Of a DNA stretch of 64,000 nucleotides, positions 3,874-61,158 are shown piece after piece. The DNA comes from Escherichia phage vB_EcoM_JNE01. The DNA is taken from the sequence record OR670491, one strand, 5' to 3'. Position numbers and translations under genes: made by a program. Position 1 is the stretch's first letter. Each line of letters opens with the position of its first letter. A model generated the notes under the pieces. The model was not told the DNA's origin, searched no databases, and saw only the letters and a program-made list of their open reading frames with translations.

Positions 3874-4476
3874 ATGTTTTTTAAAGAAACTCTAGAAGTG
3901 TTTGATATTGTCAAAGCATTGTATTACAGTAATAATATGGTAGAATGTATCTTACCATATGAATATAGTAATGATGCTGGACACAGTTTACGCATTGAAT
4001 CGGTTAATGGTTTTCACGGATACTATCAGTTTACCAAAAAACTTTCAGTACCGGAACATACCGTTCAATCCGTTCAAAAGCCACTAGGCCAGCATGTACA
4101 CTCTATTCCCAATCCAATTACCAATACCAATAACATATCAATATCAGGTGGCATCGCGTTTAATACAGTGACTACACCACAACGCTATACTATTAAAGTT
4201 AAAGTGGATAGAAATTTACGTACTTTATTAAGTGTTGATTGGTATGAATTAAAAGGTACTGGTTATTATATTAATAGTAATGGAACGGCTGTTGCAACTG
4301 ATGGGAACTTAATCGCATCTGCATTATATCTAGGTGAATCAACTATAGTTGATGGTGTATTATATGGAAATGATTCAGCCGAAGCATTTTTGAAAGATGT
4401 AGCCAGTGATGATAAAATAAGTATTCTTTCACTTATTAATCTACGTAAGGATGCAGATGAAATATTTAAAAAATGA
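3874..4476 (+). CDS. hypothetical protein (AT-rich gene)
   Basis: 200-aa ORF; low GC, Asn/Tyr-rich. Confidence 0.5.
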   Translation: MFFKETLEVFDIVKALYYSNNMVECILPYEYSNDAGHSLRIESVNGFHGYYQFTKKLSVPEHTVQSVQKPLGQHVHSIPNPITNTNNISISGGIAFNTVTTPQRYTIKVKVDRNLRTLLSVDWYELKGTGYYINSNGTAVATDGNLIASALYLGESTIVDGVLYGNDSAEAFLKDVASDDKISILSLINLRKDADEIFKK

Positions 4477-5394: not shown

Positions 5395-5876
5395 TGTTTG
5401 AATTCCCTGAAGAAGAAAAGAATTACATCGATGCTACTGATGATGGTTATCGTCACATTAACATCTATAGTAAAGCAAAAACTAAACTTGGAAGGGATCT
5501 ATCAAACTTTTCTAATCATAGCTTTAGACTAGAACCTTATGGTTGGTTCCCGTCAGTAGAGACATTCTACTTCTGGTTCTTAACAGGACAGAAGCATGAT
5601 GATCTACGTAAAGTATCAGGGGCAGCGGCGAAAGCTGCTGCTAACAAGTACATGCATGACCGTATTGAGATGACAGATGAATGTATATCTATCATCCAGG
5701 ATGCTATTTGTGCAAAGATAATGCAAAATCCAGAATTAGCTGAACGCTTACGTAAGAGTAAATTACCATTTTGTCATTACTATGTGTACGCTGGGAAAGT
5801 TGTAGATGTTTCTGGTGAGCACTCATGGTTTGTTCAGACGTTCGAAGACATTAGAACAGCATTGAGGGAATTATGA
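5394..5876 (+). CDS. hypothetical protein; possible NADAR/YbiA-like domain
   Basis: 160-aa ORF; LSNFSNHSF...YGWFPSVETFYFW segment resembles the NADAR fold signature (low certainty). Confidence 0.5.
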   Translation: MFEFPEEEKNYIDATDDGYRHINIYSKAKTKLGRDLSNFSNHSFRLEPYGWFPSVETFYFWFLTGQKHDDLRKVSGAAAKAAANKYMHDRIEMTDECISIIQDAICAKIMQNPELAERLRKSKLPFCHYYVYAGKVVDVSGEHSWFVQTFEDIRTALREL

Positions 5877-22281: not shown

Positions 22282-22849
<568 letters not shown>

Positions 22850-22881
22850 TACTGATAAATATTAATGAAAGGTATAGAGAA

Positions 22882-23079
22882 ATGACTAAATCCGAACTTC
22901 TGGCTTTATTAGAAAATTATCCAGATGATGCATGTATTGAAGTAGTTCACACTGCACAACATTTTGACATTGAAGATGTTGTACGATACAATGACAAAGG
23001 TGTGATGATTATGGAACTATGTATCGGTGCTTTGAAAACTGTGCCAGAATCAACTAAACGAAAATCCCAAAAGGAATAA
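22882..23079 (+). CDS. hypothetical protein
   Basis: 65-aa ORF. Confidence 0.45.
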   Translation: MTKSELLALLENYPDDACIEVVHTAQHFDIEDVVRYNDKGVMIMELCIGALKTVPESTKRKSQKE

Positions 23080-23085
23080 AATATT

Positions 23086-23319
23086 ATGGAAACTAATACA
23101 ATTTTAGATGTAGTAAACAGTGTTAATACTGGTGACTTTGTTCACATTCTTTTATCCAACATCCGCGTTAAGGGTATTGTTGAAAGTGTTGATTCTGAAG
23201 TTCTAACTATTGTTGAAGTTGATCCATACGACAATAATAAATCAGTTCGTCTGTGCATTGATGTTTCCAAAATTGTAGCACTCGGTACAGAAATTATTAC
23301 TGAAGAAACTAATCTATAA
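23086..23319 (+). CDS. hypothetical protein
   Basis: 77-aa ORF. Confidence 0.45.
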   Translation: METNTILDVVNSVNTGDFVHILLSNIRVKGIVESVDSEVLTIVEVDPYDNNKSVRLCIDVSKIVALGTEIITEETNL

Positions 23320-23330
23320 AACGACAATAA

Positions 23331-23407
<77 letters not shown>

Positions 23408-23460
23408 CTTAAGAGGATTTAATATGTTTAAAGATGAACGTCCAGATTTGTAAATAATCA

Positions 23461-23489
23461 TTGACTAAATAATCCAGTACTGATAAAAT
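23461..23489 (+). promoter_or_regulatory. promoter with CAGTACTG spacer motif, upstream of tRNA-Ser
   Basis: TTGACT, 17-nt spacer containing CAGTACTG, TAAAAT. Confidence 0.5.
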
Positions 23490-23495
23490 AAATTT

Positions 23496-23582
<87 letters not shown>

Positions 23583-23589
23583 TCAATAT

Positions 23590-23671
<82 letters not shown>

Positions 23672-23692
23672 ATTTTAATTTAAGGTGTATCC

Positions 23693-23857
23693 ATGACGCA
23701 TGAAGAATGGATGAATGATATTAATTTTAGATATTCGGGTATCGGTAGTTGGCGAAAATATCATTGGGAAATTATATCAGACCCAGCAGAATACGATAAA
23801 CTTATAAACCATGAAGTATATCCGTGGTTCTTTATTGAAATAATGGTACGAATATGA
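23693..23857 (+). CDS. MTHEEW-family micro-protein (54 aa)
   Basis: MTHEEWMNDINFRYSG...; first of three tandem copies. Confidence 0.45.
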   Translation: MTHEEWMNDINFRYSGIGSWRKYHWEIISDPAEYDKLINHEVYPWFFIEIMVRI

Positions 23858-24018
23858 CGCATGAAGAATGGATGAATGACATTAATTTTAGATATTCGGG
23901 TTTCGGTAAATGGCTAAAGTATCATTGGGAATTTATTACTGATCCTCAAATGTACGATAAACTTATAAATGATCAAGCATATGAAATTTACTTATTTGAA
24001 ATACTGGTCAGAACATGA
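23854..24018 (+). CDS. MTHEEW-family micro-protein (54 aa)
   Basis: Near-identical N-terminus to previous; ATGA overlap. Confidence 0.45.
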   Translation: MTHEEWMNDINFRYSGFGKWLKYHWEFITDPQMYDKLINDQAYEIYLFEILVRT

Positions 24019-24179
24019 CGCATGAAGAATGGATGAGAAAACAAAAGCTAACATGGAATCCTTATTGTTACCAGTTAGACCCAAGAATGTGGGATGTGAT
24101 ACGTATTAAATGTATGTACAAATCATTTCTTGGTGATATAATGGATGTTGAAGTACTGATGAATTTAGTACATCGATAA
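24015..24179 (+). CDS. MTHEEW-family micro-protein (54 aa)
   Basis: MTHEEWMRKQKL...; ATGA overlap. Confidence 0.45.
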   Translation: MTHEEWMRKQKLTWNPYCYQLDPRMWDVIRIKCMYKSFLGDIMDVEVLMNLVHR

Positions 24180-24209
24180 TAAAAATCTTATTTAAATGGG
24201 ATTGATATC

Positions 24210-24571
<362 letters not shown>

Positions 24572-24575
<4 letters not shown>

Positions 24576-24600
24576 CTAAATAGTTCAGTACTGATAAAAT
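24572..24600 (+). promoter_or_regulatory. promoter with CAGTACTG spacer motif
   Basis: TTGACT-AAATAGTTCAGTACTGA-TAAAAT. Confidence 0.5.
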
Positions 24601-24757
24601 GGTAAGGCGTGGAAATATGTTTACAGTAGTTACATAGTAGCCTGTACGCCCCACGTCAAGGTAGCCGAAAGGCAAGTTAAAAAGGGTGGTTATAAAGCTG
24701 AATTAACAGCGGCGTTTAAAAGCGTCACCATCCATTTTTTTAATTAAAGTTGGTGAT

Positions 24758-25259
<502 letters not shown>

Positions 25260-25264
25260 AAATC

Positions 25265-25354
25265 GGTCCCGTTGCCTAGCGTCCGAAGGCAGCCGACTCA
25301 TAATCGGTCACAGTTAATGACACGCCACTGGTTAGAATCCAGTCGGGACCACCA
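25265..25354 (+). tRNA. type II (long variable arm) tRNA with CAT anticodon; identity unclear
   Basis: Acceptor GGTCCCG/CGGGACC; anticodon arm GCCGA-CTCATAA-TCGGT; 18-nt variable region; atypical T-loop TTAGAAT; CCA encoded. Confidence 0.55.
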
Positions 25355-25358
25355 ATTA

Positions 25359-25431
25359 GACTCTGTAGTTCAGTTGGTAGAACGCTTCACTCATAATGAA
25401 GAAGTCGCTGGTTCAATCCCAGTACTGACCA
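25359..25431 (+). tRNA. tRNA-Met(CAT)-like; 3' acceptor strand not complementary (possible pseudogene)
   Basis: Canonical D-arm and anticodon arm CTTCA-CTCATAA-TGAAG, T-loop TTCAATC, but 5' GACTCTG does not pair with 3' ACTGACC; 3' end abuts the low-GC minus-strand gene. Confidence 0.45.
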
Positions 25432-25439
25432 CAAAAAAA

Positions 25440-27137
<1,698 letters not shown>

Positions 27138-27207
27138 AATATTCTCCTGAATTTTCTAAAAGTTATAATAATATTTAGTTACAATATTTATGATATAGAT
27201 TAAAAAG

Positions 27208-27236
27208 TTGAAATGTGTTCAAAAATGTGGTATAAT
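27208..27236 (+). promoter_or_regulatory. sigma70-type promoter
   Basis: TTGAAA, 17-nt spacer, TATAAT with upstream TG. Confidence 0.45.
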
Positions 27237-27242
27237 ACCTCT

Positions 27243-27486
<244 letters not shown>

Positions 27487-27514
27487 CTTTTTAATTTAAA
27501 AGTACTTTACTGTA

Positions 27515-28084
27515 GTGTTTAGTATCGTATATTGTAATCAAAAGGATATAATAAAACTCATGGAGAGAGTTGAAGAATGGCGTGATGTTGTTGGTTATGA
27601 AGACCATTTCCAAGTTAGTAACAAAGGTAGAATTTACAGCAAAAGAACAAATAAAATTTTAGTTCAAGGTACTAATAAAAAAGGTTATAAAGTATTAAGT
27701 ACTAGAATTGGTGGAAGAACTGGAGTATGTAAGTGTTTTAGGGTTCATATTTTAGTGGCTCAAGCATTTATATCAAATCCACATAATAAGCCCATTGTAA
27801 ACCATAAAGATGGCAATAAACAAAACAACGAAGACTGGAATTTAGAATGGTCTACATATAGTGAGAATACTAATCATGCTTATAAAAATGGTTTAACAAT
27901 ACCATTAAAAGGAACTGAACAAGTTCAATCCAAATTAACCGAAGATGATGTTAGATACATACGTTCAGTGTATAAACCATATGATAAAACATATGGTGCA
28001 TCTATGTTAGCAAAACAATTTGGTGTACATCATAGTTTAATATCGGATATAGCATCACATAAATCATGGAAGCATGTTAAGTAA
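27515..28084 (+). CDS. HNH homing endonuclease
   Basis: N-terminal motif EEWRDVVGYEDHFQVSNKGRIYS; HNH motif HILVAQAF...NHKDGNKQNN; low GC. Confidence 0.8.
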   Translation: MFSIVYCNQKDIIKLMERVEEWRDVVGYEDHFQVSNKGRIYSKRTNKILVQGTNKKGYKVLSTRIGGRTGVCKCFRVHILVAQAFISNPHNKPIVNHKDGNKQNNEDWNLEWSTYSENTNHAYKNGLTIPLKGTEQVQSKLTEDDVRYIRSVYKPYDKTYGASMLAKQFGVHHSLISDIASHKSWKHVK

Positions 28085-28103
28085 TAAAAAAACAGTACTG
28101 AAC

Positions 28104-28135
<32 letters not shown>

Positions 28136-28146
28136 CAAACATATTC

Positions 28147-28222
28147 GGCCCTGTATACAATCCAGGAATGTACTCTGCTCATAACAGATGTAAGGTCGGG
28201 GCAGCACCGACCAGGGCCACCA
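28147..28222 (+). tRNA. tRNA-like gene with CAT anticodon and non-canonical T-loop
   Basis: Acceptor GGCCCTG/CAGGGCC + A + CCA; anticodon hairpin TCTG-CTCATAA-CAGA; T-arm GTCGG-GGCAGCA-CCGAC (not TTCRANY). Confidence 0.4.
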
Positions 28223-28382
28223 ATTTTGGACACATTAATCTTCGATGGTAATGCTGGTTAATATCTTACGGCTGTAAAATGCAATACATTACATATTGCT
28301 TCAGGTACAGAGATATAAAGATTAATTAATAAGGTATCCTTATTTTGTCCAATCCTTAATAACTAGAAATGGTGGGAAAGAA

Positions 28383-28829
28383 ATGAAAGGTGTTTCAATT
28401 TTTTACGATTACCATGAACAAGGTTTACCACATCAGATTGCTGGAATCTATTCTACGTCTGATAAAACCGAAGAAGAGATGCGTACTGAATTATTGTCGC
28501 TAATTGGTGAGAGAAGTTTCCATGAACGTGATCAACCAATTTTCATTAACCACACACATTTGTATGCAAAAAGTTTGCTAGGTGAAGAACTTGATAAAAA
28601 GGTGGAATACACTTTGAAACAGTTCTTCCCAATCGCACTTGATGTAGTTGGTTTCAAATCATCGGATTTCAAGTTCATGTACTATGATGTTGAAGCATAT
28701 GAGTTCGCTTGGAACAATCGTTATCATAAACAATTACACCAATATCGTTTAGAACTTCAACATGAAGCGGCTGAAGCATATAAAGCAAAACGAGCAGCAC
28801 AGAAGCTTGAAGGTAACGTACAGAAATGA
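28383..28829 (+). CDS. hypothetical protein
   Basis: 148-aa ORF. Confidence 0.5.
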   Translation: MKGVSIFYDYHEQGLPHQIAGIYSTSDKTEEEMRTELLSLIGERSFHERDQPIFINHTHLYAKSLLGEELDKKVEYTLKQFFPIALDVVGFKSSDFKFMYYDVEAYEFAWNNRYHKQLHQYRLELQHEAAEAYKAKRAAQKLEGNVQK

Positions 28830-29128
28830 TAGAATCTATCTTATGTGTACTGTTGCCAATTTTAGTAGTTGCTTTGATATGTCTTTATTATGGTTACAGT
28901 ACTGTAATTGATAAAAAGCAAGTTTACGTCATTACATTCAGTACTACACATATTGAGTTTGGTAATGTACATACCGGTATCACTTATATTGCATATCGTT
29001 GTAAGTACTTCCATAAGTTCAAATCTTATGATATGATCTATTACTGTGATGAATCCAACGTGAACCGTTATATTGACATAAACGATGAATCAAAAAAATC
29101 GTTTTACAGTTTTAAAGAATTAAAATAA
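28826..29128 (+). CDS. hypothetical membrane protein
   Basis: 100 aa; hydrophobic N-terminus. Confidence 0.5.
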   Translation: MIESILCVLLPILVVALICLYYGYSTVIDKKQVYVITFSTTHIEFGNVHTGITYIAYRCKYFHKFKSYDMIYYCDESNVNRYIDINDESKKSFYSFKELK

Positions 29129-29208
29129 ATGTAGACGGATGTATTCAGTACTGAATCACCAGGGGAGGTTGTAATTCCCGATTCAGTAGCTTTTTAAGCG
29201 GTTTCGTG

Positions 29209-29255
<47 letters not shown>

Positions 29256-29256
29256 G

Positions 29257-29309
<53 letters not shown>

Positions 29310-29327
29310 CGAGGTACTCCGGTATGC

Positions 29328-29360
<33 letters not shown>

Positions 29361-29468
29361 AATATTGTTGCAACAGTATTCAGTACTACTTTTTAATTGA
29401 CACAACTTTGAATGAGGTGTATTATGTTCCAAGAAGAAAACTGGGGTTTTTAACATAAAGGGGAATGT

Positions 29469-29576
29469 ATGAAAGTGAGTAAAGAAACGGCTAAACAGCT
29501 TGAAGAACTTTGTTCAGCACAACCTATGCCTACACTTGCTTTAATCAAGTTAATGCGTCGAAATAAGCAAAAATAA
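29469..29576 (+). CDS. small hypothetical protein (35 aa)
   Basis: ATG after AAAGGGGAA RBS; below track size cutoff. Confidence 0.25.
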   Translation: MKVSKETAKQLEELCSAQPMPTLALIKLMRRNKQK

Positions 29577-29659
29577 AAATGATAAATAATACAGTAAGAT
29601 GACCTCCCCTCAATACGAAAGAGTATGGAGACTTGTTGGTTATCTTACTTCTTAAATTA

Positions 29660-29732
29660 GCCTTCTTAACTCAGTTGGTAGAGTAATCGCCTTGTAAGCG
29701 ATAAGTCATCCGTTCAAGTCGGATAGAGGGCA
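29660..29732 (+). tRNA. tRNA-Thr (anticodon TGT)
   Basis: Acceptor GCCTTCT/AGAGGGC; D-arm ACTC-AGTTGGTAG-AGT; anticodon arm ATCGC-CTTGTAA-GCGAT; T-arm ATCCG-TTCAAGT-CGGAT. Confidence 0.8.
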
Positions 29733-29734
29733 CA

Positions 29735-29816
<82 letters not shown>

Positions 29817-35964: not shown

Positions 35965-37122
35965 TTATGCAGTATAACCAACAATGACGATGGATGAATC
36001 AAACGGCTCTACAGATCGTACTGTAACGTTGTCATCAGCATCTAGTTCAATCTCACATAGTACTGTATGATTCATATCATCATATACTTGTACTTGTGGA
36101 TATAACTTACCATGTGTTGCTTTAGGTATACTTAGTGTATACATCATTTCAGAATCAACTACCCAATCACTTGAAAGTATTTCATCGAAGTAAGGTGTAG
36201 TCTGGATTGTTTTACCAATTACGCTCAAAGAGATTGGTTCATTATCACTTTGATATACAGTGATATTACCACTTGCATCTACATTGATATCAACACCAAT
36301 GAGAAAATCATTTGCGTTGTAAGCTTGTAGTACTAGATGATCGCCACGGTCATGCACGACTTCAGGTAGGACCGCTTTATATAGCCCATCACTTACGAAA
36401 TCAAACTGTGCCAGTGCGATGTTCGTCACAAATCCAATATCCTCACCTGATTCCAACACGTCAAACTCAACTGTTTTAGTATTGTATATATCGGAAGTAA
36501 GTATTACAGTTCCCTTACCTTGTTGTGTAATAGCATCAACAGGAATGCTAAACACGTCATCGATAATTTCAGTAGTAAAGTATTCAGTACCGTCAGGTAG
36601 GATTACTGTGATTTTCATACCAGTAGTATCAATCACTTCACCTGCGTTAAACAAGCGACCACCAACCAAATCGTCACCAACAAACACTGGGAACATAATG
36701 ATGTTATCAATGTCATGGTCTACAATCCCACATTCAGGGACGTACATATCATATAGAGTGGTTGAGCTACCTAGAATTGTTTTATGTAAGAGGAACTTAT
36801 AAACGAACCCGTTTGGATCAGTACTAAGATTTTGTTCAGTATGGCCTCGAATGAAGAAAGAGTTTTTCTTAATTTCACTGAGTAGTTGATCATTGGTTTT
36901 ATTGTAGTTAAGCTGATACCCATTCGTATCAGTTGTTGTTAGTTGTACTTTGCGATAGATAACGTTAGTTTTTGGATCTAGAATATCGTATAGTCTGTGG
37001 CTTCGTTGACGATAGATTCTCATGTTCTTGAGCTTCGTACCATCTTGTAAATACACACCATCAACAATATACCCACATTCACCAAACTTATAACGTCCAG
37101 CAGCAGCAATTGACCTTGACAT
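35965..37122 (-). CDS. hypothetical protein (minus strand); possible fibre/adhesin-like beta-rich protein
   Basis: Track ORF 35965-37182 trimmed to the ATG after a GGAGGGAG RBS; about 385 aa. Confidence 0.5.
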   Translation of the reverse strand: MSRSIAAAGRYKFGECGYIVDGVYLQDGTKLKNMRIYRQRSHRLYDILDPKTNVIYRKVQLTTTDTNGYQLNYNKTNDQLLSEIKKNSFFIRGHTEQNLSTDPNGFVYKFLLHKTILGSSTTLYDMYVPECGIVDHDIDNIIMFPVFVGDDLVGGRLFNAGEVIDTTGMKITVILPDGTEYFTTEIIDDVFSIPVDAITQQGKGTVILTSDIYNTKTVEFDVLESGEDIGFVTNIALAQFDFVSDGLYKAVLPEVVHDRGDHLVLQAYNANDFLIGVDINVDASGNITVYQSDNEPISLSVIGKTIQTTPYFDEILSSDWVVDSEMMYTLSIPKATHGKLYPQVQVYDDMNHTVLCEIELDADDNVTVRSVEPFDSSIVIVGYTA

Positions 37123-37238
37123 TACTCCCTCCATTGGTATAATAATTATAACGTATTTATTCCAGTTCATAAAAAATAGCACTTGACCACTAGTGATATT
37201 TGTTGTATTATTACGTGGAATATTGATAAGGGGATACC

Positions 37239-38560: not shown

Positions 38561-39021
38561 TTTATCTCGTATTACTTTTTTCACCTTTAATATTCTTTGT
38601 TGTGTACAATATTATTATTGACACACGAAACTTCAAGTACACAGTAATTATCTGTAAGAACGAGGGATGGTCTAACTTCCTTAGAGTTCTCTGGGAATCT
38701 TACTTCATTGATAAAAGATTCGTGAGGTGTCCTGAATTTGATAAGTGGGAGTATAGTAACGCTAAACTATCATCTATTGAGTACATACTTAGACATTACT
38801 TGAGTTCAACTAAAGGTGTTACATTCGAGAAAGCATACCCTTATGATAGGTCGTATGTAAAATATCGTTTGGAATATCAAGATAAACTTGTTAAACTAGA
38901 GATGTACCACAAGGGTGTGTTTTGCTATGTATTTGACTATCTGGTGATCCCACCTTACCATGCACGATTGATTGAAGCAGCAATTAAAAAGAATGATAAA
39001 AATATTCTTGACATACTTTAA
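38557..39021 (+). CDS. hypothetical membrane-anchored protein
   Basis: 154 aa; hydrophobic N-terminus. Confidence 0.5.
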   Translation: MIYLVLLFSPLIFFVVYNIIIDTRNFKYTVIICKNEGWSNFLRVLWESYFIDKRFVRCPEFDKWEYSNAKLSSIEYILRHYLSSTKGVTFEKAYPYDRSYVKYRLEYQDKLVKLEMYHKGVFCYVFDYLVIPPYHARLIEAAIKKNDKNILDIL

Positions 39022-39069
39022 ATAACCCAGTATACTAATCTCATAACGTAATCACTAGAGGATATAAAG

Positions 39070-40672: not shown

Positions 40673-40750
40673 AAAAAAAAGTACTTGACCAATTGAATAT
40701 CATGGAGTACATTGTGCTCCTACTTTAATGAAAAGCCAAAAGGAAATAAA

Positions 40751-41011
40751 ATGAAATCTATTCTCGTTGCAGTTAACCTGGTTGCTTCCCCATCTTTCAA
40801 CTTCAAAAAAGTTGTTGCTGACAATCTGAAGAACATCTGCCCTAATGCTGAATTGACTTTCTGTGTATTCGATTCCGAGAAACTAACAACTGTTGATCTA
40901 AACTATCTCTTGAACGATGTACAAAGTATTTCTGGTGAAAGTAACTTCAATGTAGTTCAGGAAGTTGCAGACGAGTATGATGATACTTTGGTTATTTCGG
41001 AGAATTTCTAA
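40751..41011 (+). CDS. hypothetical protein; first gene of the sigma-factor operon
   Basis: Track ORF trimmed to the ATG after an AAAGGAAA RBS; 86 aa. Confidence 0.45.
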   Translation: MKSILVAVNLVASPSFNFKKVVADNLKNICPNAELTFCVFDSEKLTTVDLNYLLNDVQSISGESNFNVVQEVADEYDDTLVISENF

Positions 41012-41016
41012 ATCCA

Positions 41017-41436
41017 ATGCGAAGAATCATACAGTACTTAATCAGGAAATTATTTCGTTATGAAACGATAGAATATAAAGCTAATCTTGCATACCAAATT
41101 TACATAGCATTGTGTACTGGTGATTACGCTGTGTTGAATAAGTACTGTGCTTCTAAAGCAACTATTGATATAATGGCACTTCGTCTGTACGAGTGCCAGT
41201 TCTTTAGATACAATCATTATCAGTACAGATATGATGAAAAAGATTTCAATAGCATTGATATGCTAACGAAATTATGTAATAATAAAAAGAATATTCACAT
41301 ATCAGAATTCACCGCATTGTATTTTTATCTCAAGAGTTCATTATATATTAACTCTATGAAGAGATTCGATACTCGTGTTAATGCATTTGAAGGTAAAGAA
41401 TATGAGATATATGATAAATTTTTAGATAAGGTGTAA
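41017..41436 (+). CDS. hypothetical protein
   Basis: 139-aa ORF. Confidence 0.5.
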   Translation: MRRIIQYLIRKLFRYETIEYKANLAYQIYIALCTGDYAVLNKYCASKATIDIMALRLYECQFFRYNHYQYRYDEKDFNSIDMLTKLCNNKKNIHISEFTALYFYLKSSLYINSMKRFDTRVNAFEGKEYEIYDKFLDKV

Positions 41437-41437
41437 T

Positions 41438-41935
41438 ATGACTACTGTTTATATTGATAAGCGTTTAGGCGTATTAATGACTGATTCAAGGGTGACAAGT
41501 ACTCGCCCACGAATTTTTTTGGGTATCTTCCCATTAAAAGAAAAAAACCACTACGGTGTTGTTTCACAGAAAACCTTGTATGTTCATGACCGTCTCTTCA
41601 GTGCAGCAGGATCAGTTTCTGAAATTGACAAAGTACTGAATTATTTAATTACTGGTGAAAAGGTAATTCCTTCCAAAAAGCTATCGTGCCATTGTGTGTT
41701 GTTATCTAAGGACTATTGTATTCATTTTGTCCTAGTAGACGGTAAGTTCGTTAAGAAGTTAGTTTTTCTACACAAGGACTACACGTTTTTTATGGGTAGT
41801 GGTGGTGAATATATGATTGACGCAGCTTGTCATGAGGACTATAGTACTCTCCAAGCTAAAGTACTGGATACTTTTATGAAAGTAAAAAATCATGATTGTT
41901 TCAGTGATGATAATATTAATGTATATCGTTTTTGA
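41438..41935 (+). CDS. HslV/ClpQ-like Ntn-hydrolase peptidase (proteasome beta-type), tentative
   Basis: N-terminal Met-Thr-Thr; TDSRVT (cf. HslV GDGQAT); Lys at ~33; AAGS; GSGG motif at ~120; 165 aa. Confidence 0.45.
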   Translation: MTTVYIDKRLGVLMTDSRVTSTRPRIFLGIFPLKEKNHYGVVSQKTLYVHDRLFSAAGSVSEIDKVLNYLITGEKVIPSKKLSCHCVLLSKDYCIHFVLVDGKFVKKLVFLHKDYTFFMGSGGEYMIDAACHEDYSTLQAKVLDTFMKVKNHDCFSDDNINVYRF

Positions 41936-41957
41936 TTTTTTTCATTAGGAGCCGTAA

Positions 41958-42920
41958 TTGAAAAAGCTAGATCTAAATGCAATTGCTGATGAAGTACTGG
42001 ATGAATGTTTTGCTAGTGAAGAAGTCAACGTATTAGAGGCAATTGATGCCGTTGAAGAAGAACATGATGACCACAAGTTCGAGAAGCCTAACACTGGTAT
42101 CAGTTTGACTCGTCCTAAAGGTGTAACGAATGAAATGCTCATCCAGGAAGTACGTGATGGCATTAACGTTGAAAAGAACATTGATCTTCTGGTACGTTAC
42201 AACTACCCAATGATTGTTAGTACTGCTCGTAAATGTACATGTTTCATCCCATTTGAAGATAAGATTTCATATGGTGTTGAAGGTTTAATGCGAGCGATTC
42301 ATACATTCGATCCTACCAAGAACGTTAAGTTCATTACCTATGCAACAACAACAGTGTATATGACAATCTATAACGAAAGTGCAGACGCTAACTACCTAGT
42401 GCACTTCCCACGTTATATGAGTGTTAACAACATTTATGTGAAACGTTGTGTAGAAGCGTACCAAAAGAAATATGGTAGGTTCCCAACTCCAGAGATGGTC
42501 GCTGAAGAGACTGGTATTGAGATTCAACACGTTAAGAATTGTCTAACCTACACCAATACTTATATGGCATTGGATATGAAATTGAGTACTGATTCAGAAA
42601 GTACCTTGTCTGACATTGTTACTACAGTTGATCCTGATTACAACTTAGGTGCAGAAACTATCAGTATCCCACTGGTACAAAGTATTGCAGATATGATGCA
42701 TAATCTATCTGAAAAAGACCGTGAGTTGATTGAACGTGTACATGGTATTGGTTCAGCACAAGAACCAGAAACGCTACGAGAAATCATTGAGAGCGGTTTT
42801 GAAGATGAGAAGGGTAAAGTCATTACTGCTCGTTCTTCCTTGCACCGTAAGTACTCTGACGCAATGGAACGCCTACGTAAGATGGTGAAGTCCAGAGGTT
42901 ATGAGTTCGAAGATTTTTAA
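41958..42920 (+). CDS. sigma70-family RNA polymerase sigma factor
   Basis: Region 2: GLMRAIHTFDPTKNVKFITYATTTVYMTI...FPRYM; region 4: LSEKDRELIERVHGIG...ETLREI...ARSSLHRKYSDAMERLR; apparent TTG start after GGAG. Confidence 0.7.
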   Translation: MKKLDLNAIADEVLDECFASEEVNVLEAIDAVEEEHDDHKFEKPNTGISLTRPKGVTNEMLIQEVRDGINVEKNIDLLVRYNYPMIVSTARKCTCFIPFEDKISYGVEGLMRAIHTFDPTKNVKFITYATTTVYMTIYNESADANYLVHFPRYMSVNNIYVKRCVEAYQKKYGRFPTPEMVAEETGIEIQHVKNCLTYTNTYMALDMKLSTDSESTLSDIVTTVDPDYNLGAETISIPLVQSIADMMHNLSEKDRELIERVHGIGSAQEPETLREIIESGFEDEKGKVITARSSLHRKYSDAMERLRKMVKSRGYEFEDF

Positions 42921-42927
42921 GATTAAA

Positions 42928-42954
42928 GGGTTGACTTCGGTCAACCCTTTTTTT
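42928..42954 (+). terminator. PeSL-like terminator hairpin
   Basis: GGGTTGAC-TTCG-GTCAACCC followed by a T-run. Confidence 0.65.
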
Positions 42955-43439
42955 ATGGGACAAATTCGTAAATGGTGATACAATGATCTATGCACAACCA
43001 CAATGACAGTACTTGTACTGATAATCTTCCCTAATTCACTTGAAAACGTAAAGGATAGATGAGCTTTTCATTGTAGCGAACAGCAAAAGAAACCCGTTAG
43101 ATGTGGGCATAGTTTGAACCCCTCACGGCAATGCGGCTGTATAAAGAACCACGTTAGGATGGCTGGTGGTTCCTCGATAGACATATAAGGATAACACCTT
43201 ACGAATTATCTAAGGGAGAGTTATCAGATTTTGTACAATATAGTTGCGTCCAAAATTTGAGTACTCACATTAAGTATTTGATTGCATAGATACTTAATGA
43301 AGATACACTATGTTTAAAAGTGTAGACCGTCATATGAAACTGAAGTAGAGAGAAACAGGATGATCCGCTTTCGTGCTCTTTAAGAGTAATCTTCAATGCA
43401 ATAGCTCTGATACCATCAGCGTCAAATTCCCCTCTGTGT

Positions 43440-43447
43440 GGGGGGGG
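43440..43447. repeat. G8 homopolymer tract in a long non-coding region
   Basis: GTGTGGGGGGGGAAG read directly from sequence. Confidence 0.5.
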
Positions 43448-43558
43448 AAGAAAAATCCCTTTCTCAAATCCCGTCAATATTATAAAGTCCTTGACAGTTA
43501 TTATACATTCGCGTAAGATACGTAGTATCAGAAGCGAACAGACATCTCGAAGAGATGG

Positions 43559-43795: not shown

Positions 43796-43824
43796 TTGAC
43801 ACGTAAGAAGTTCTAGAGTATAAT
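43796..43824 (+). promoter_or_regulatory. sigma70-type promoter
   Basis: TTGACA, 17-nt spacer, TATAAT. Confidence 0.55.
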
Positions 43825-44071: not shown

Positions 44072-44359
44072 ATGTTTATTCCTAATAATTCTAAAATTGG
44101 AACACAAGTACAACTTCTAGAAGATGTAAGTACTTGCAGTGGTACTTTCACTAAAGGTCACATCTTAACTATCACAGGTGAAACCGAGCGTGGTTATGAT
44201 TTGGAAGATGCTGATGGTAATCGTATCTTAGAAGCAGGGTTTAGTCGTTTTGTTGAAGTGGATAGTACTGACCAGAAAGAAACAGAAGGTCATTGTTTTG
44301 ATTACCAAGAAGTCAACTCAAAATGTATCTGTGGTGAAATTTATAGTAAATGGGATTGA
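44072..44359 (+). CDS. hypothetical protein
   Basis: 95-aa ORF. Confidence 0.5.
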   Translation: MFIPNNSKIGTQVQLLEDVSTCSGTFTKGHILTITGETERGYDLEDADGNRILEAGFSRFVEVDSTDQKETEGHCFDYQEVNSKCICGEIYSKWD

Positions 44360-44429
44360 CATAGTATAGAAATACTATATAATGTTTATATCAAATGAAA
44401 TTCACTTTAACCAACGATAGGAAAATATT

Positions 44430-61021: not shown

Positions 61022-61158
61022 TTAAAACTTTTATTCTTACAATGGTATTTGGTTCTTATGGTGCTGGTGTGCACCAGTAACTAAGAAATAAAAAAAGGTT
61101 GACAGTAGTCATCCCTTTCTATATAATTAATACATCTTAAGCGAACGAGGATTTACAA

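What the first reader, a model, noticed from the sequence alone, without database searches (positions are those of the whole stretch)
40751..42920. Operon pairing a phage sigma70-family sigma factor with an HslV-like (proteasome-type) peptidase
ORF 41958-42920 carries clear sigma70 region 2 (GLMRAIHTFDPTKNVKFITYATTTVYMTI...FPRYM) and region 4 (LSEKDRELIERVHGIG...ETLREI...RKYSDAMERLR) signatures. Immediately upstream, ORF 41438-41935 begins Met-Thr-Thr and has a conserved Lys near position 33 and a GSGG motif, the hallmarks of the HslV/ClpQ Ntn-hydrolase (proteasome beta) fold, with no HslU-like ATPase nearby. Two small unknown ORFs (40751, 41017) lead the same transcription unit, which ends at the terminator at 42928. 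A full-length sigma70-family factor is not part of the canonical T4 regulatory scheme (gp55/AsiA/MotA). Co-transcription with a proteasome-like peptidase suggests a regulated-proteolysis or processing module, but that is inference.
Basis: partly seen in the sequence, partly recalled or inferred. Interest (0 to 1): 0.8.

Follow-up and report, generated by a model that had tools for sequence, protein, structure and literature searches.

The report
Phage sigma factor beside proteasome-like peptidase
A giant E. coli phage carries, side by side in its early-gene region, its own RNA-polymerase sigma factor and a small proteasome-type threonine peptidase. Both gene kinds are already known from phages, and comparison with relatives gives no sign that the two depend on each other.

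Summary
The window is a Rak2-like jumbo coliphage, 98.5% identical to Escherichia phage Turkey5, not a T4-type phage.

ORF 41958-42920 is an RpoD/RpoS-like sigma factor. Regions 2 and 3 are clear. Region 4 escapes Pfam and carries an insertion in its helix-turn-helix. Such sigmas are a published hallmark of this phage group.

The "regulated-proteolysis module" idea is not supported:
- About 20 related phages have the orthologous sigma but no peptidase.
- Five distant peptidase homologues have no sigma gene nearby.
- RaK2, Munch and a metagenomic relative have a terminator between the two genes.

Verdict: new member of a known kind, modest interest.

In passing: directly after the sigma terminator (43030-43482) lies a roughly 450-nt, covariation-supported structured RNA. 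It occurs about four times per genome in Rak2-like phages and is absent from Rfam. This looks more novel than the finding.

The parts
39008..39036 (+). Near-consensus sigma70 promoter (TTGACA-17-TATACT), the strongest candidate start of the transcript that runs through the four genes
   Evidence: 11 of 12 matches. The window holds 16 perfect TTGACA-N16-18-TATAAT sites, all on the + strand, against 0.13 expected, so this is a host-sigma70-driven early region. No terminator-like site lies between here and 42925 except a weak one inside a coding region.
40685..40713 (+). Weak promoter-like site (TTGACC-17-TACATT) in the 78-nt gap before ORF 40751
   Evidence: 9 of 12 matches; sequence. Consensus match only; not tested.
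40751..41011 (+). Small ORF (86 aa), function unknown, conserved in the clade
   Evidence: phrog_26969, E 1.5e-41. No Pfam family. Homologous to the RaK2 100-aa ORF in the same position (26% identity, E 9e-10).
41017..41436 (+). ORF (139 aa), function unknown, specific to this lineage; its stop lies 1 nt before the peptidase start
   Evidence: phrog_37211, E 1.8e-64. No Pfam family. Not detectably related to the 151/159-aa ORFs in this slot in RaK2 and Hallingskeid, which are 47% identical to each other.
41438..41935 (+). Proteasome-beta/HslV-fold N-terminal-threonine peptidase (165 aa), PPH-like, with no partner ATPase gene
41958..42920 (+). RpoD/RpoS-like phage sigma factor (320 aa) with conserved regions 2 and 3, a divergent region 4 and a conserved N-terminal motif
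   Evidence: Pfam r2 and r3. phrog_351. NCBIfam RpoD_Cterm and rpoS models, all below their curated cut-offs. PDB SigB/SigA/RpoS hits, E about 1e-17. AlphaFold helical domains at 58-144, 156-222 and 232-312. N-terminal motif MKKLDLNxIxDEVLDECF nearly invariant.
42925..42950 (+). Intrinsic terminator that ends the transcription unit
   Evidence: AAAGGGTTGAC-TTCG-GTCAACCCTTT followed by TTTTTAT. Conserved in fEgEco12 and phAPEC6.

Best explanation
These are two neighbouring early genes of a Rak2-like jumbo coliphage. They sit in a region read by host sigma70-RNA polymerase from consensus promoters.

The sigma gene encodes an RpoD/RpoS-like factor that binds host core polymerase. It keeps sigma70-like region 2 but has a remodelled region 4.2. 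I infer that it redirects the polymerase to a phage promoter class with a normal -10 element and a different -35 element, that is, the middle genes.

The gene before it encodes a compact proteasome-type threonine peptidase. Host methionine aminopeptidase exposes Thr1. Asp17, Lys33, Gly47, Ser129, Asp166 and Ser169 equivalents complete the active site, so it is most likely an active hydrolase. It lacks helix H2, like the phage proteasome homologue PPH. It probably works as a self-assembling accessory protease on host or phage proteins early in infection, without a phage-encoded unfoldase.

The adjacency of the two genes reflects inherited gene order and shared early timing, not an obligatory enzyme-substrate pair.

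Shown: the identity of both proteins, conservation of the catalytic residues, the early-region context and the phyletic patterns.
Inferred: peptidase activity, oligomeric state, substrates and the sigma's promoter class.
For: Sigma identity.

Early-region context: 16 perfect sigma70 promoters, all on the + strand, against 0.13 expected. The CBB paper places the orthologous sigma in the early region. It also describes a second promoter class with a standard -10 but a TGAAACG -35, upstream of DNA-synthesis genes, plus a gp55-like late sigma (PMC5259590). Region 4 escapes Pfam across the whole family, and the model shows an insertion at 279-291 between the helix-turn-helix helices.

Peptidase:
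- phrog_1040 matches.
- Every one of about 35 homologues starts MTT.
- Invariant or near-invariant T2, D16, K45, G58, S121, D153.
- All 39 weak PDB profile hits are proteasome beta subunits, with the motifs TT..DSRxT and GSG..D.YS aligned.
- A single helix at 60-72 where H1 and H2 would be, matching 'PPH/RPC lacks H2' (PMC8665760).
- Absent from the phAPEC6 virion proteome text; that phage has a separate gp21-like prohead protease.

Independence of the two genes:
- The sigma is full length in 73 records, the peptidase is in 51. Two divergent queries returned the same counts by genus, and none of the hits was a CBB/GAP32/BF/Yen9-04-type phage.
- CBB's sigma keeps the N-terminal motif although no peptidase is nearby.
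- The peptidase occurs without a sigma nearby in L009, L010, L012, L013 and L016.
- Terminators lie between the two genes in RaK2, Munch and L011.
Against: - The peptidase-then-sigma order persists down to 27-31% peptidase identity (Munch, L011, L014; 2.1 kb apart in L017). This is deeper than most local synteny and could reflect function.
- In this genome the genes are only 22 nt apart, with no terminator between them.
- No Pfam or NCBIfam model recognises the peptidase, and profile matches to solved proteasomes are individually non-significant (best E 0.03). The assignment rests on fold, PHROG profiles and motif congruence.
- The AlphaFold model is of moderate quality (pLDDT 78; residues 19-22 and 36-41 are below 50).
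- No expression, activity or binding data exist for any member.
Confidence: 0.55

Rival explanations
1. Dedicated protease-sigma module. The peptidase matures the phage sigma (removing its N-terminal segment, as SpoIIGA does for pro-sigmaE in Bacillus subtilis), times its destruction, or clears a competitor such as host sigma70, sigmaS, sigma32 or an anti-sigma factor.
For: - Tight spacing and no terminator between the genes in this genome.
- Adjacency kept across deep divergence.
- The sigma has a nearly invariant 18-residue N-terminal motif, followed by a variable acidic linker that AlphaFold cannot place.
- From established knowledge, not tested here: the spoIIGA-sigE operon has the same gene order, and E. 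coli HslUV degrades sigma32.
Against: - About 20 Rak2-like genomes (CBB, GAP32, Serratia BF, Yersinia Yen9-04, XbC2 and others) carry the orthologous sigma with the same N-terminal motif but no detectable peptidase.
- Five distant peptidase homologues have no sigma within reach.
- Terminators separate the genes in RaK2, Munch and L011.
Confidence: 0.15
2. The peptidase acts by hijacking the host. It docks onto host HslU (in place of, or mixed with, host HslV) to retarget or poison the host HslUV protease.
For: - The closest solved fold is HslV.
- The E. coli host encodes HslU, and the phage clade encodes no HslU/ClpX-type ATPase.
- Orphan HslV genes are noted in another jumbo phage (PMC7823757).
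Against: - The model lacks helix H2.
- From my own recollection of HslUV structures, not tested here: H2 lies on the ring face where HslU docks.
- Direct profile comparison with E. coli HslV aligns only the GSGG region.
- No NCBIfam HslV model matches.
- Other orphan proteasome homologues (BPH, Anbu) work without a known ATPase (PMC5777263 and PMC8665760).
Confidence: 0.15
3. The protein is not a degradative protease. Either it is a connectase-like Thr1 transpeptidase or ligase acting on a specific target, or it is a non-catalytic scaffold that keeps the fold.
For: - Loss of H2 and a 20-residue insertion in the S2-S3 region could preclude stacked rings (PMC8665760 makes this point for several new homologues).
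Against: - The Ser129, Asp166 and Ser169 equivalents typical of proteolytic beta subunits are all conserved.
- Invariance of the catalytic residues argues against a pseudoenzyme.
Confidence: 0.1

Closest known systems
PPH (Proteasome homologue of Phages and their Hosts) and the related AAH/RPC groups, Fuchs, Alva and Lupas 2021 (PMC8665760)
   Same: - Phage-encoded.
- Compact group I (HslV/BPH-like) proteasome homologue.
- No propeptide.
- Conserved Thr1/Asp17/Lys33/Gly47 core.
- The second helix (H2) is missing.
- No dedicated ATPase.
   Different: - 165-183 aa rather than about 140, owing to an insertion of roughly 20 residues between strands S2 and S3.
- Forms its own narrow family (phrog_24804): only 17 representatives at 50% identity among 1.84 billion proteins.
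- Direct sequence clustering with PPH could not be tested.
HslV (ClpQ), the peptidase of the bacterial HslUV protease
   Same: - Met-Thr-Thr start with Thr1 exposed by methionine removal.
- GSGG motif.
- Similar size.
   Different: - No adjacent or phage-encoded HslU.
- Not recognised by Pfam or NCBIfam HslV/proteasome models.
- H2 absent.
- The Lys33 equivalent is shifted to residue 45 by an insertion.
Orphan bacterial and archaeal proteasome homologues BPH, Anbu and connectase
   Different: These are cellular proteins with both or neither of helices H1/H2. Connectase is a ligase. There is no sequence-level relationship to the phage family.
RpoD-like sigma factors of group 2 (Rak2-like) jumbo phages, for example CBB_513 and the GAP32 and RaK2 sigmas
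   Same: Orthologous (32-40% identity over the full length). Same early-region position. Same N-terminal motif. Described as a hallmark of the group (PMC7824862, PMC11895373).
   Different: The allele here is only 57% identical to that of PBECO4, 121Q and phAPEC6, although the neighbouring peptidase is 73% identical. No biochemical data exist for any of them.
Bacillus subtilis spoIIG operon (SpoIIGA protease followed by pro-sigmaE)
   Same: A protease gene immediately upstream of a sigma70-family gene, and a sigma with an N-terminal extension. This comes from established knowledge and is an analogy only.
   Different: SpoIIGA is a membrane aspartic protease. Here the co-occurrence test fails: the sigma, with the same N-terminus, exists without the peptidase in about 20 genomes.

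Membership tests
Proteasome-beta/HslV superfamily (MEROPS T1, Ntn hydrolases) | Alpha-beta-beta-alpha sandwich fold of proteasome subunits | tested here: met
   [not shown]
Proteasome-beta/HslV superfamily (MEROPS T1, Ntn hydrolases) | Thr nucleophile at the mature N-terminus | tested here: met
   M1 T2 T3 invariant in all 25 aligned sequences, and every homologue retrieved starts MTT. Methionine removal before Thr is inferred from the known specificity of methionine aminopeptidase.
Proteasome-beta/HslV superfamily (MEROPS T1, Ntn hydrolases) | Asp/Glu17, Lys33 and Gly47 plus the Ser129, Asp166 and Ser169 equivalents | tested here: met
   D16 and K45 conserved in at least 90% of sequences; G58, S121 and D153 invariant; S/T at 156. 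The motifs align with beta5 TT..DSRAT and GSGS..RDAYSG.
Proteasome-beta/HslV superfamily (MEROPS T1, Ntn hydrolases) | Recognition by curated sequence models (Pfam Proteasome, NCBIfam HslV). This is a detection criterion, not a defining property. | tested here: not met
   No Pfam hit at E up to 1 and no NCBIfam hit at E up to 1. Only PHROG phrog_1040 'peptidase HslV family' matches.
HslV proper (partner of HslU) | Cognate HslU ATPase gene in the same genome or operon | tested here: not met
The two of these that were listed are not Rak2-like phages, whereas 32 Escherichia records carry the peptidase.
HslV proper (partner of HslU) | Both flanking helix pairs (H1-H2, H3-H4) and double hexameric rings | tested here: inconclusive
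   The model shows one helix (60-72) where H1 and H2 would be. The oligomeric state cannot be tested with these tools.
PPH (phage/host proteasome homologue) | Phage-borne, lacks H2, compact (about 140 aa), clusters with PPH sequences | tested here: inconclusive
   Phage-borne and H2-less: met. Length is 165 aa: not met. Clustering was not tested, because no PPH reference sequence is available in the tools.
Sigma70 family, groups 1-3 (RpoD/RpoS-like) | Region 2 (core binding, -10 recognition) and region 3 | tested here: met
   Pfam Sigma70_r2 at 36.8 bits (cut-off 24) and Sigma70_r3 at 45.6 bits (cut-off 25.3). PDB SigB/SigA/RpoS hits with E from 1e-17 to 1e-13.
Sigma70 family, groups 1-3 (RpoD/RpoS-like) | Region 4 helix-turn-helix (-35 recognition, beta-flap binding) | tested here: inconclusive
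   No Pfam Sigma70_r4 hit in this protein, even for the C-terminal fragment alone; the RaK2 orthologue gives a half-length hit at E 0.03. None of 26 homologues has r4 precomputed. RpoS/SigB alignments do reach residue 306-318, and AlphaFold gives confident helices at 232-248, 252-262, 273-278 and 292-312 with an insertion at 279-291.
Sigma70 family, groups 1-3 (RpoD/RpoS-like) | Binds core RNA polymerase and directs promoter-specific initiation | not testable with these tools
   Needs pull-down and in vitro transcription.
Protease/pro-sigma processing module (SpoIIGA-sigmaE type) | Protease and sigma co-occur and are co-transcribed across genomes | tested here: not met
   - Sigma without peptidase in CBB, GAP32, BF, Yen9-04 and XbC2.
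- Peptidase without a nearby sigma in 5 contigs.
- Terminators between the two genes in RaK2, Munch and L011.

The most novel reading that the evidence does not exclude
A virus-encoded proteasome-type peptidase directly controls a virus-encoded sigma factor, either by removing its conserved N-terminal segment or by timing its destruction. Together with the multi-copy structured RNA transcribed immediately downstream, these genes would form an early cassette for taking over host RNA polymerase in one branch of the Rak2-like phages.
Probability: 0.08. Interest if true: 0.8.

Novelty: new member of a known kind. Interest (0 to 1): 0.35.

Why it matters
The sigma is very likely the switch that moves host polymerase from early to middle genes in a group of 350-kb coliphages that is being proposed for therapy. 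None of these sigmas has been characterised.

The peptidase adds a well-defined, catalytically complete and very narrow family to the recently recognised phage proteasome homologues, none of which has a known substrate. If it acts with host HslU, or on transcription factors, it would be a new host-takeover route, but the present evidence does not point there.

The practical gains from this check are:
- corrected catalytic-residue assignments for mutagenesis (T2, D16, K45, S121, D153);
- a clear phyletic argument against an obligatory protease-sigma pair;
- a pointer to an unannotated, covariation-supported large RNA next door.

Tried and rejected
- Pfam and NCBIfam scans of the peptidase found nothing.
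- phmmer and profile searches of the peptidase against PDB sequences gave no significant hit. The single-sequence best hits were unrelated fluorescent proteins. The A2 profile's hits were all proteasome beta subunits, but with E of 0.03 or worse.
- K34 as the Lys33 equivalent: rejected, because it is not conserved.
- Prohead-maturation protease: rejected. The protein does not appear in the phAPEC6 virion proteome text, and a separate gp21-like protease exists (RaK2 ORF092).
- ORF 41017 as a conserved partner of the peptidase: rejected. It is not homologous to the ORF in that slot in RaK2 or Hallingskeid.
- CBB_507 (175 aa, upstream of the CBB sigma) as a hidden peptidase homologue: rejected, because it has no MTT start and is unrelated.
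- The terminator-like site at 41490-41508 and the promoter-like site at 41817-41845, both inside the peptidase gene, were treated as chance. They lie in coding sequence, and the promoter hexamers vary in relatives.
- A search for the CBB 'TGAAACG' -35 promoter class in this window gave 0 matches. This is uninformative, because the window is early region.
- Homology of the downstream RNA element to PA5oct ncRNA002 and ncRNA004: no match with either nhmmer or the covariance model.
- The loose DNA pattern used to scan IMG/VR returned mostly chance matches. Only 12 of 120 loci were real.
Full report
**What is in the sequence**

The four ORFs are real and tightly packed on the + strand:
- 40751-41011, 86 aa from the ATG. 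The RBS is AAGGA, and the annotated Turkey5 CDS has the same length.
- 41017-41436, 139 aa.
- 41438-41935, 165 aa, beginning MTTVYIDK.
- 41958-42920, 320 aa, with a TTG start preceded by AGGAG.

Sequence around the starts was read. The gaps between the genes are 5, 1 and 22 nt. A strong intrinsic terminator (11-bp stem, then a T-run) lies at 42925-42950. The only other terminator-like site, at 41490, is a 6-bp stem inside the peptidase coding region.

**What genome this is**

The region is 98.5% identical over its whole length to Escherichia phage Turkey5 (351 kb). It is 76-83% identical to fEgEco12, PBECO4, 121Q, phAPEC6 and other jumbo coliphages of the Asteriusvirus/Rak2-like group. The sigma protein is 100% identical to one from phage vB_EcoM_JNE01. 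T4 is therefore the wrong frame of reference.

The window is an early region. It contains 16 perfect TTGACA-N16-18-TATAAT promoters, all on the + strand, where 0.13 are expected by chance. The nearest upstream of the finding are at 37116-37143 (perfect) and 39008-39036 (11 of 12 matches). The CBB paper reached the same conclusion for the orthologous region and placed the sigma gene in it (PMC5259590).

**The sigma factor**

- Pfam finds region 2 (residues 78-140, 36.8 bits) and region 3 (161-223, 45.6 bits), both above the gathering cut-offs.
- PHROGs assigns phrog_351, an RNA polymerase sigma factor family.
- NCBIfam RpoD_Cterm, rpoS and SigB models match at E 1e-26 to 1e-23, but far below their curated cut-offs.
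- The best solved relatives are M. tuberculosis SigB and SigA and RpoS, with E about 1e-17.

No Pfam Sigma70_r4 hit is obtained for the whole protein or for the C-terminal 96 residues. The RaK2 orthologue gives only a half-length hit at E 0.03. None of 26 homologues has a precomputed r4 hit. Even so, the RpoS and SigB alignments reach residues 306-318. The AlphaFold model (pLDDT 70 overall, 78-90 for residues 240-312) has helices at 232-248, 252-262, 273-278 and 292-312, with an insertion at 279-291 between the last two. I read this as a sigma-4 domain with a remodelled helix-turn-helix.

That reading fits the promoter class reported for CBB and GAP32, which has a normal -10 element but a TGAAACG -35 element and sits upstream of DNA-synthesis genes (PMC5259590). 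This link is my inference. The same paper reports a gp55-like late sigma in these phages, so the RpoD-like factor is most plausibly the middle-gene switch.

[quoted passage not shown] It is annotated as a sigma factor in most related records.

The N-terminal 18 residues (MKKLDLNxIxDEVLDECF) are nearly invariant. A variable acidic linker follows, which AlphaFold cannot place.

**The peptidase**

No Pfam or NCBIfam model matches. Sequence searches of solved structures are individually non-significant. Four independent lines nevertheless agree.

1. *PHROG profiles.* phrog_1040, 'peptidase HslV family', matches at E 2.3e-7 over the whole length. It matches 16 of 19 homologues, with a best E of 8.8e-11.

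3. *N-terminus.* Every homologue found starts Met-Thr-Thr. This covers 18 homologues from the 5.8-billion-protein set and 17 representatives from an exhaustive profile search of 1.84 billion proteins, with identity down to 19%.

4. *Catalytic residues.* The conserved columns are exactly the catalytic constellation of proteasome beta subunits.
   - T2 corresponds to Thr1.
   - D16 corresponds to Asp17.
   - K45 corresponds to Lys33.
   - G58 corresponds to Gly47.
   - S121 (in GSG) corresponds to Ser129.
   - D153 corresponds to Asp166.
   - S/T156 corresponds to Ser169.

   The family profile aligns its TTvyvdkrlgl.vlTDsrvT and GSGs...kDkYsddniniY blocks with the [20 protein letters not shown] and GSGS...RDAYSGG.VNLY blocks of beta5. 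All 39 weak PDB hits are proteasome beta subunits.

The real lysine is displaced by an insertion between strands S2 and S3, which is the low-confidence part of the model.

The model has one helix (60-72) where H1 and H2 normally lie. Loss of H2 is the distinguishing mark of PPH/RPC, the 'Proteasome homologue of Phages and their Hosts' described by Fuchs, Alva and Lupas (PMC8665760).

A search of predicted viral structures finds 17 phage proteins with E of 1e-3 or better. They include one named HslV and proteins from PhiPA3, Noxifer, RisingSun and RP12. The fold is therefore widespread in large phages.

**No unfoldase, and not a structural protein**

Only 4 are Escherichia records, and the two of these that were listed are not Rak2-like phages, whereas 32 Escherichia records carry the peptidase. 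An orphan HslV in a jumbo phage has been noted before (PMC7823757).

The phAPEC6 orthologues (gp067c peptidase, gp066c sigma) do not appear in the text or tables of that phage's virion mass-spectrometry paper. The phage also has a separate gp21-like prohead protease.

**Is the pairing functional?**

*For:*
- The order peptidase-then-sigma is kept in all 51 phage records that have the peptidase. These include RaK2 and K64-1 (50% identity), Hallingskeid (45%, with two small ORFs between) and Munch and 7t3 (31%).
- It is also kept in metagenomic relatives at 27-36% identity: L011 is adjacent, L014 has one 50-aa ORF between, and in L017 the sigma is 2.1 kb downstream.

*Against:*
- *Sigma without peptidase.* The orthologous sigma is full length in 73 records. 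The peptidase was found in 51 records with each of two divergent queries, with the same counts by genus. None of the hits was a CBB, GAP32, Serratia BF, Yersinia Yen9-04, XbC2 or pEa_SNUABM phage.
- *CBB in detail.* In CBB the genes before the sigma are an HTH regulator and small ORFs, and the 175-aa CBB_507 is unrelated. CBB's sigma nevertheless keeps the N-terminal motif.
- *Peptidase without sigma.* Five more distant peptidase homologues have no sigma gene within the 2-4 kb available. Two of them sit after a UvrD helicase instead.
- *Terminators between the genes.* RaK2, L011 and Munch have an intrinsic terminator hairpin with a T-run between the two genes. In Munch the record itself annotates it.
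- *Variable upstream gene.* The gene immediately upstream of the peptidase is not conserved.

The local region is collinear across the clade, so adjacency is largely inherited. I conclude that the two are independent early functions that travel together in one branch.

**Mechanism and rivals**

Best-supported account (confidence 0.55):
- Both genes are transcribed early from host-type promoters.
- The sigma then retargets core polymerase.
- The peptidase, with Thr1 exposed by methionine aminopeptidase, is an active PPH-like protease acting on unknown host or phage proteins.

Rivals:
- A SpoIIGA/pro-sigmaE-like processing or turnover module (0.15).
- Docking on host HslU (0.15).
- A connectase-like or non-degradative role (0.10).

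All need biochemistry to separate them.

**Novelty**

- The sigma is already known as a class.
- The peptidase family is labelled 'unknown function' in PHROGs and 'hypothetical protein' in most records. Two records (fEgEco12, Turkey3) already call it HslV or ATP-dependent protease next to the sigma.
- Phage proteasome homologues are published.
- This makes it a new, narrow and catalytically complete member of a known kind. No paper in the searched library discusses the pairing.

**Side observation: a structured RNA after the sigma gene**

*Location and conservation.* The ORF-free 600 nt after the sigma terminator is not empty. From about 43030 to 43482 (+ strand) lies an element preceded by an extended -10 promoter at 42957-42984; the block GTGnTAnAAT is invariant in five lineages. 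The element is 93-95% identical among coliphages whose flanking genes are 76-83% identical. It is still about 70% identical in CBB, GAP32, Serratia BF, Yersinia Yen9-04, Xanthomonas XbC2 and Munch.

*Copy number.*
- It occurs in 61 phage records at 235 places, about four dispersed same-strand copies per genome. Every copy that was fetched and inspected lies in an intergenic gap that is largely or wholly unannotated.
- The window has one copy.

*Link to the sigma gene.*
- A copy directly follows the sigma gene in the coliphages, RaK2, L011 and L017.
- A copy lies 2-5 kb downstream of the sigma in the CBB-type phages.

*Structure evidence.*
- RNAalifold on 14 sequences predicts 70 pairs, 39 of them with compensatory double changes.
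- On the 5' domain, 99% of cells pair, against 36-44% when the partners are slid.
- In that domain 15 of 25 pairs show double changes, against 1-3 in the slid controls.
- No pair in that domain varies on one side only.
- G-U pairs place the RNA on the + strand.
- Paralogues show a relocated internal module and optional terminator-like insertions.

*Not a known family.* Rfam 15 finds nothing at E up to 1 for nine copies. The PA5oct ncRNAs do not match. I found no description of it in the literature searched. It looks like an undescribed large structured RNA family.

**Limits**

- Model coordinates could not be inspected, so the three-dimensional placement of the catalytic residues is inferred from alignment and secondary structure.
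- PPH membership could not be tested by sequence.
- Absence of the peptidase from CBB-type genomes rests on tblastn at E up to 0.01.
- No expression data exist for any of these genes.

Noticed in passing
window 42957-43490 (+): promoter 42957-42984, conserved core 43030-43482. Also L004 6584-7032, L011 2465-2911, L017 4291-4622, L019 11250-11694, L030-L033, L035-L038.: A roughly 450-nt conserved structured-RNA candidate lies directly after the sigma terminator, with its own extended -10 promoter.
- It has about 4 dispersed same-strand copies per genome in Rak2-like jumbo phages (61 records, 235 places).
- It is 93-95% identical where the flanking genes are 76-83% identical.
- 39 of 70 predicted pairs show compensatory changes. 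In the 5' domain 99% of cells pair, against about 40% in slid controls.
- Paralogues show a relocated internal module.
- Rfam 15 has no match (E up to 1, nine copies), and PA5oct ncRNA002 and ncRNA004 do not match.
It is probably a new class of large phage RNA.
   Followed up: partly
whole window, for example 198-226, 1411-1439, 43796-43824, 44356-44383, 61099-61127: There are sixteen perfect sigma70 consensus promoters (TTGACA-N16-18-TATAAT), all on the + strand, against 0.13 expected by chance. The whole 64 kb is therefore a host-polymerase-driven early region.
   Followed up: partly
window 41958-42014 (sigma residues 1-18): The N-terminal motif MKKLDLNxIxDEVLDECF of the sigma is nearly invariant across orthologues down to 35% identity, and is also present in CBB. 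A variable acidic linker follows. It could be a mini region 1.1, a partner-binding helix or a degron.
   Followed up: partly
window 41958-42920 compared with relatives: The sigma allele here (shared with the fEgEco12 group at 87%) is only about 57% identical to that of PBECO4, 121Q and phAPEC6. The adjacent peptidase is about 73% identical to both groups, and the downstream RNA is 93-95% identical. This suggests fast evolution or allelic replacement of the sigma within one genus.
   Followed up: no
L005 about 4010-4081, L011 about 1240-1389, L004 about 5514-5576: In Munch and the metagenomic contig L011, the short spacer before the sigma gene holds a consensus-like promoter followed by an intrinsic terminator hairpin and then the sigma RBS. 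RaK2 has the terminator only. This could be a leader or attenuator arrangement, and it is absent from the window's lineage.
   Followed up: no
window 22282-29813: Eight tRNA genes: Leu-TAA, Gly-TCC, Ser-TGA, Ser with the unusual anticodon ACT, two Met-CAT and two adjacent Thr-TGT.
   Followed up: no
window 40751-41011; L004 4226-4528: The small conserved ORF that leads the gene group begins MKxILVAV(D/N). From memory this resembles the start of universal-stress-protein-like alpha/beta domains, but no Pfam family matches.
   Followed up: no
MT710307.1 106144-107868 (Salmonella phage pSal-SNUABM-04): The published statement that this jumbo phage has HslV genes but no HslU (PMC7823757) appears incomplete. 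tblastn with HslU finds a 38%-identical match there, annotated as 'putative DnaA protein'.
   Followed up: no
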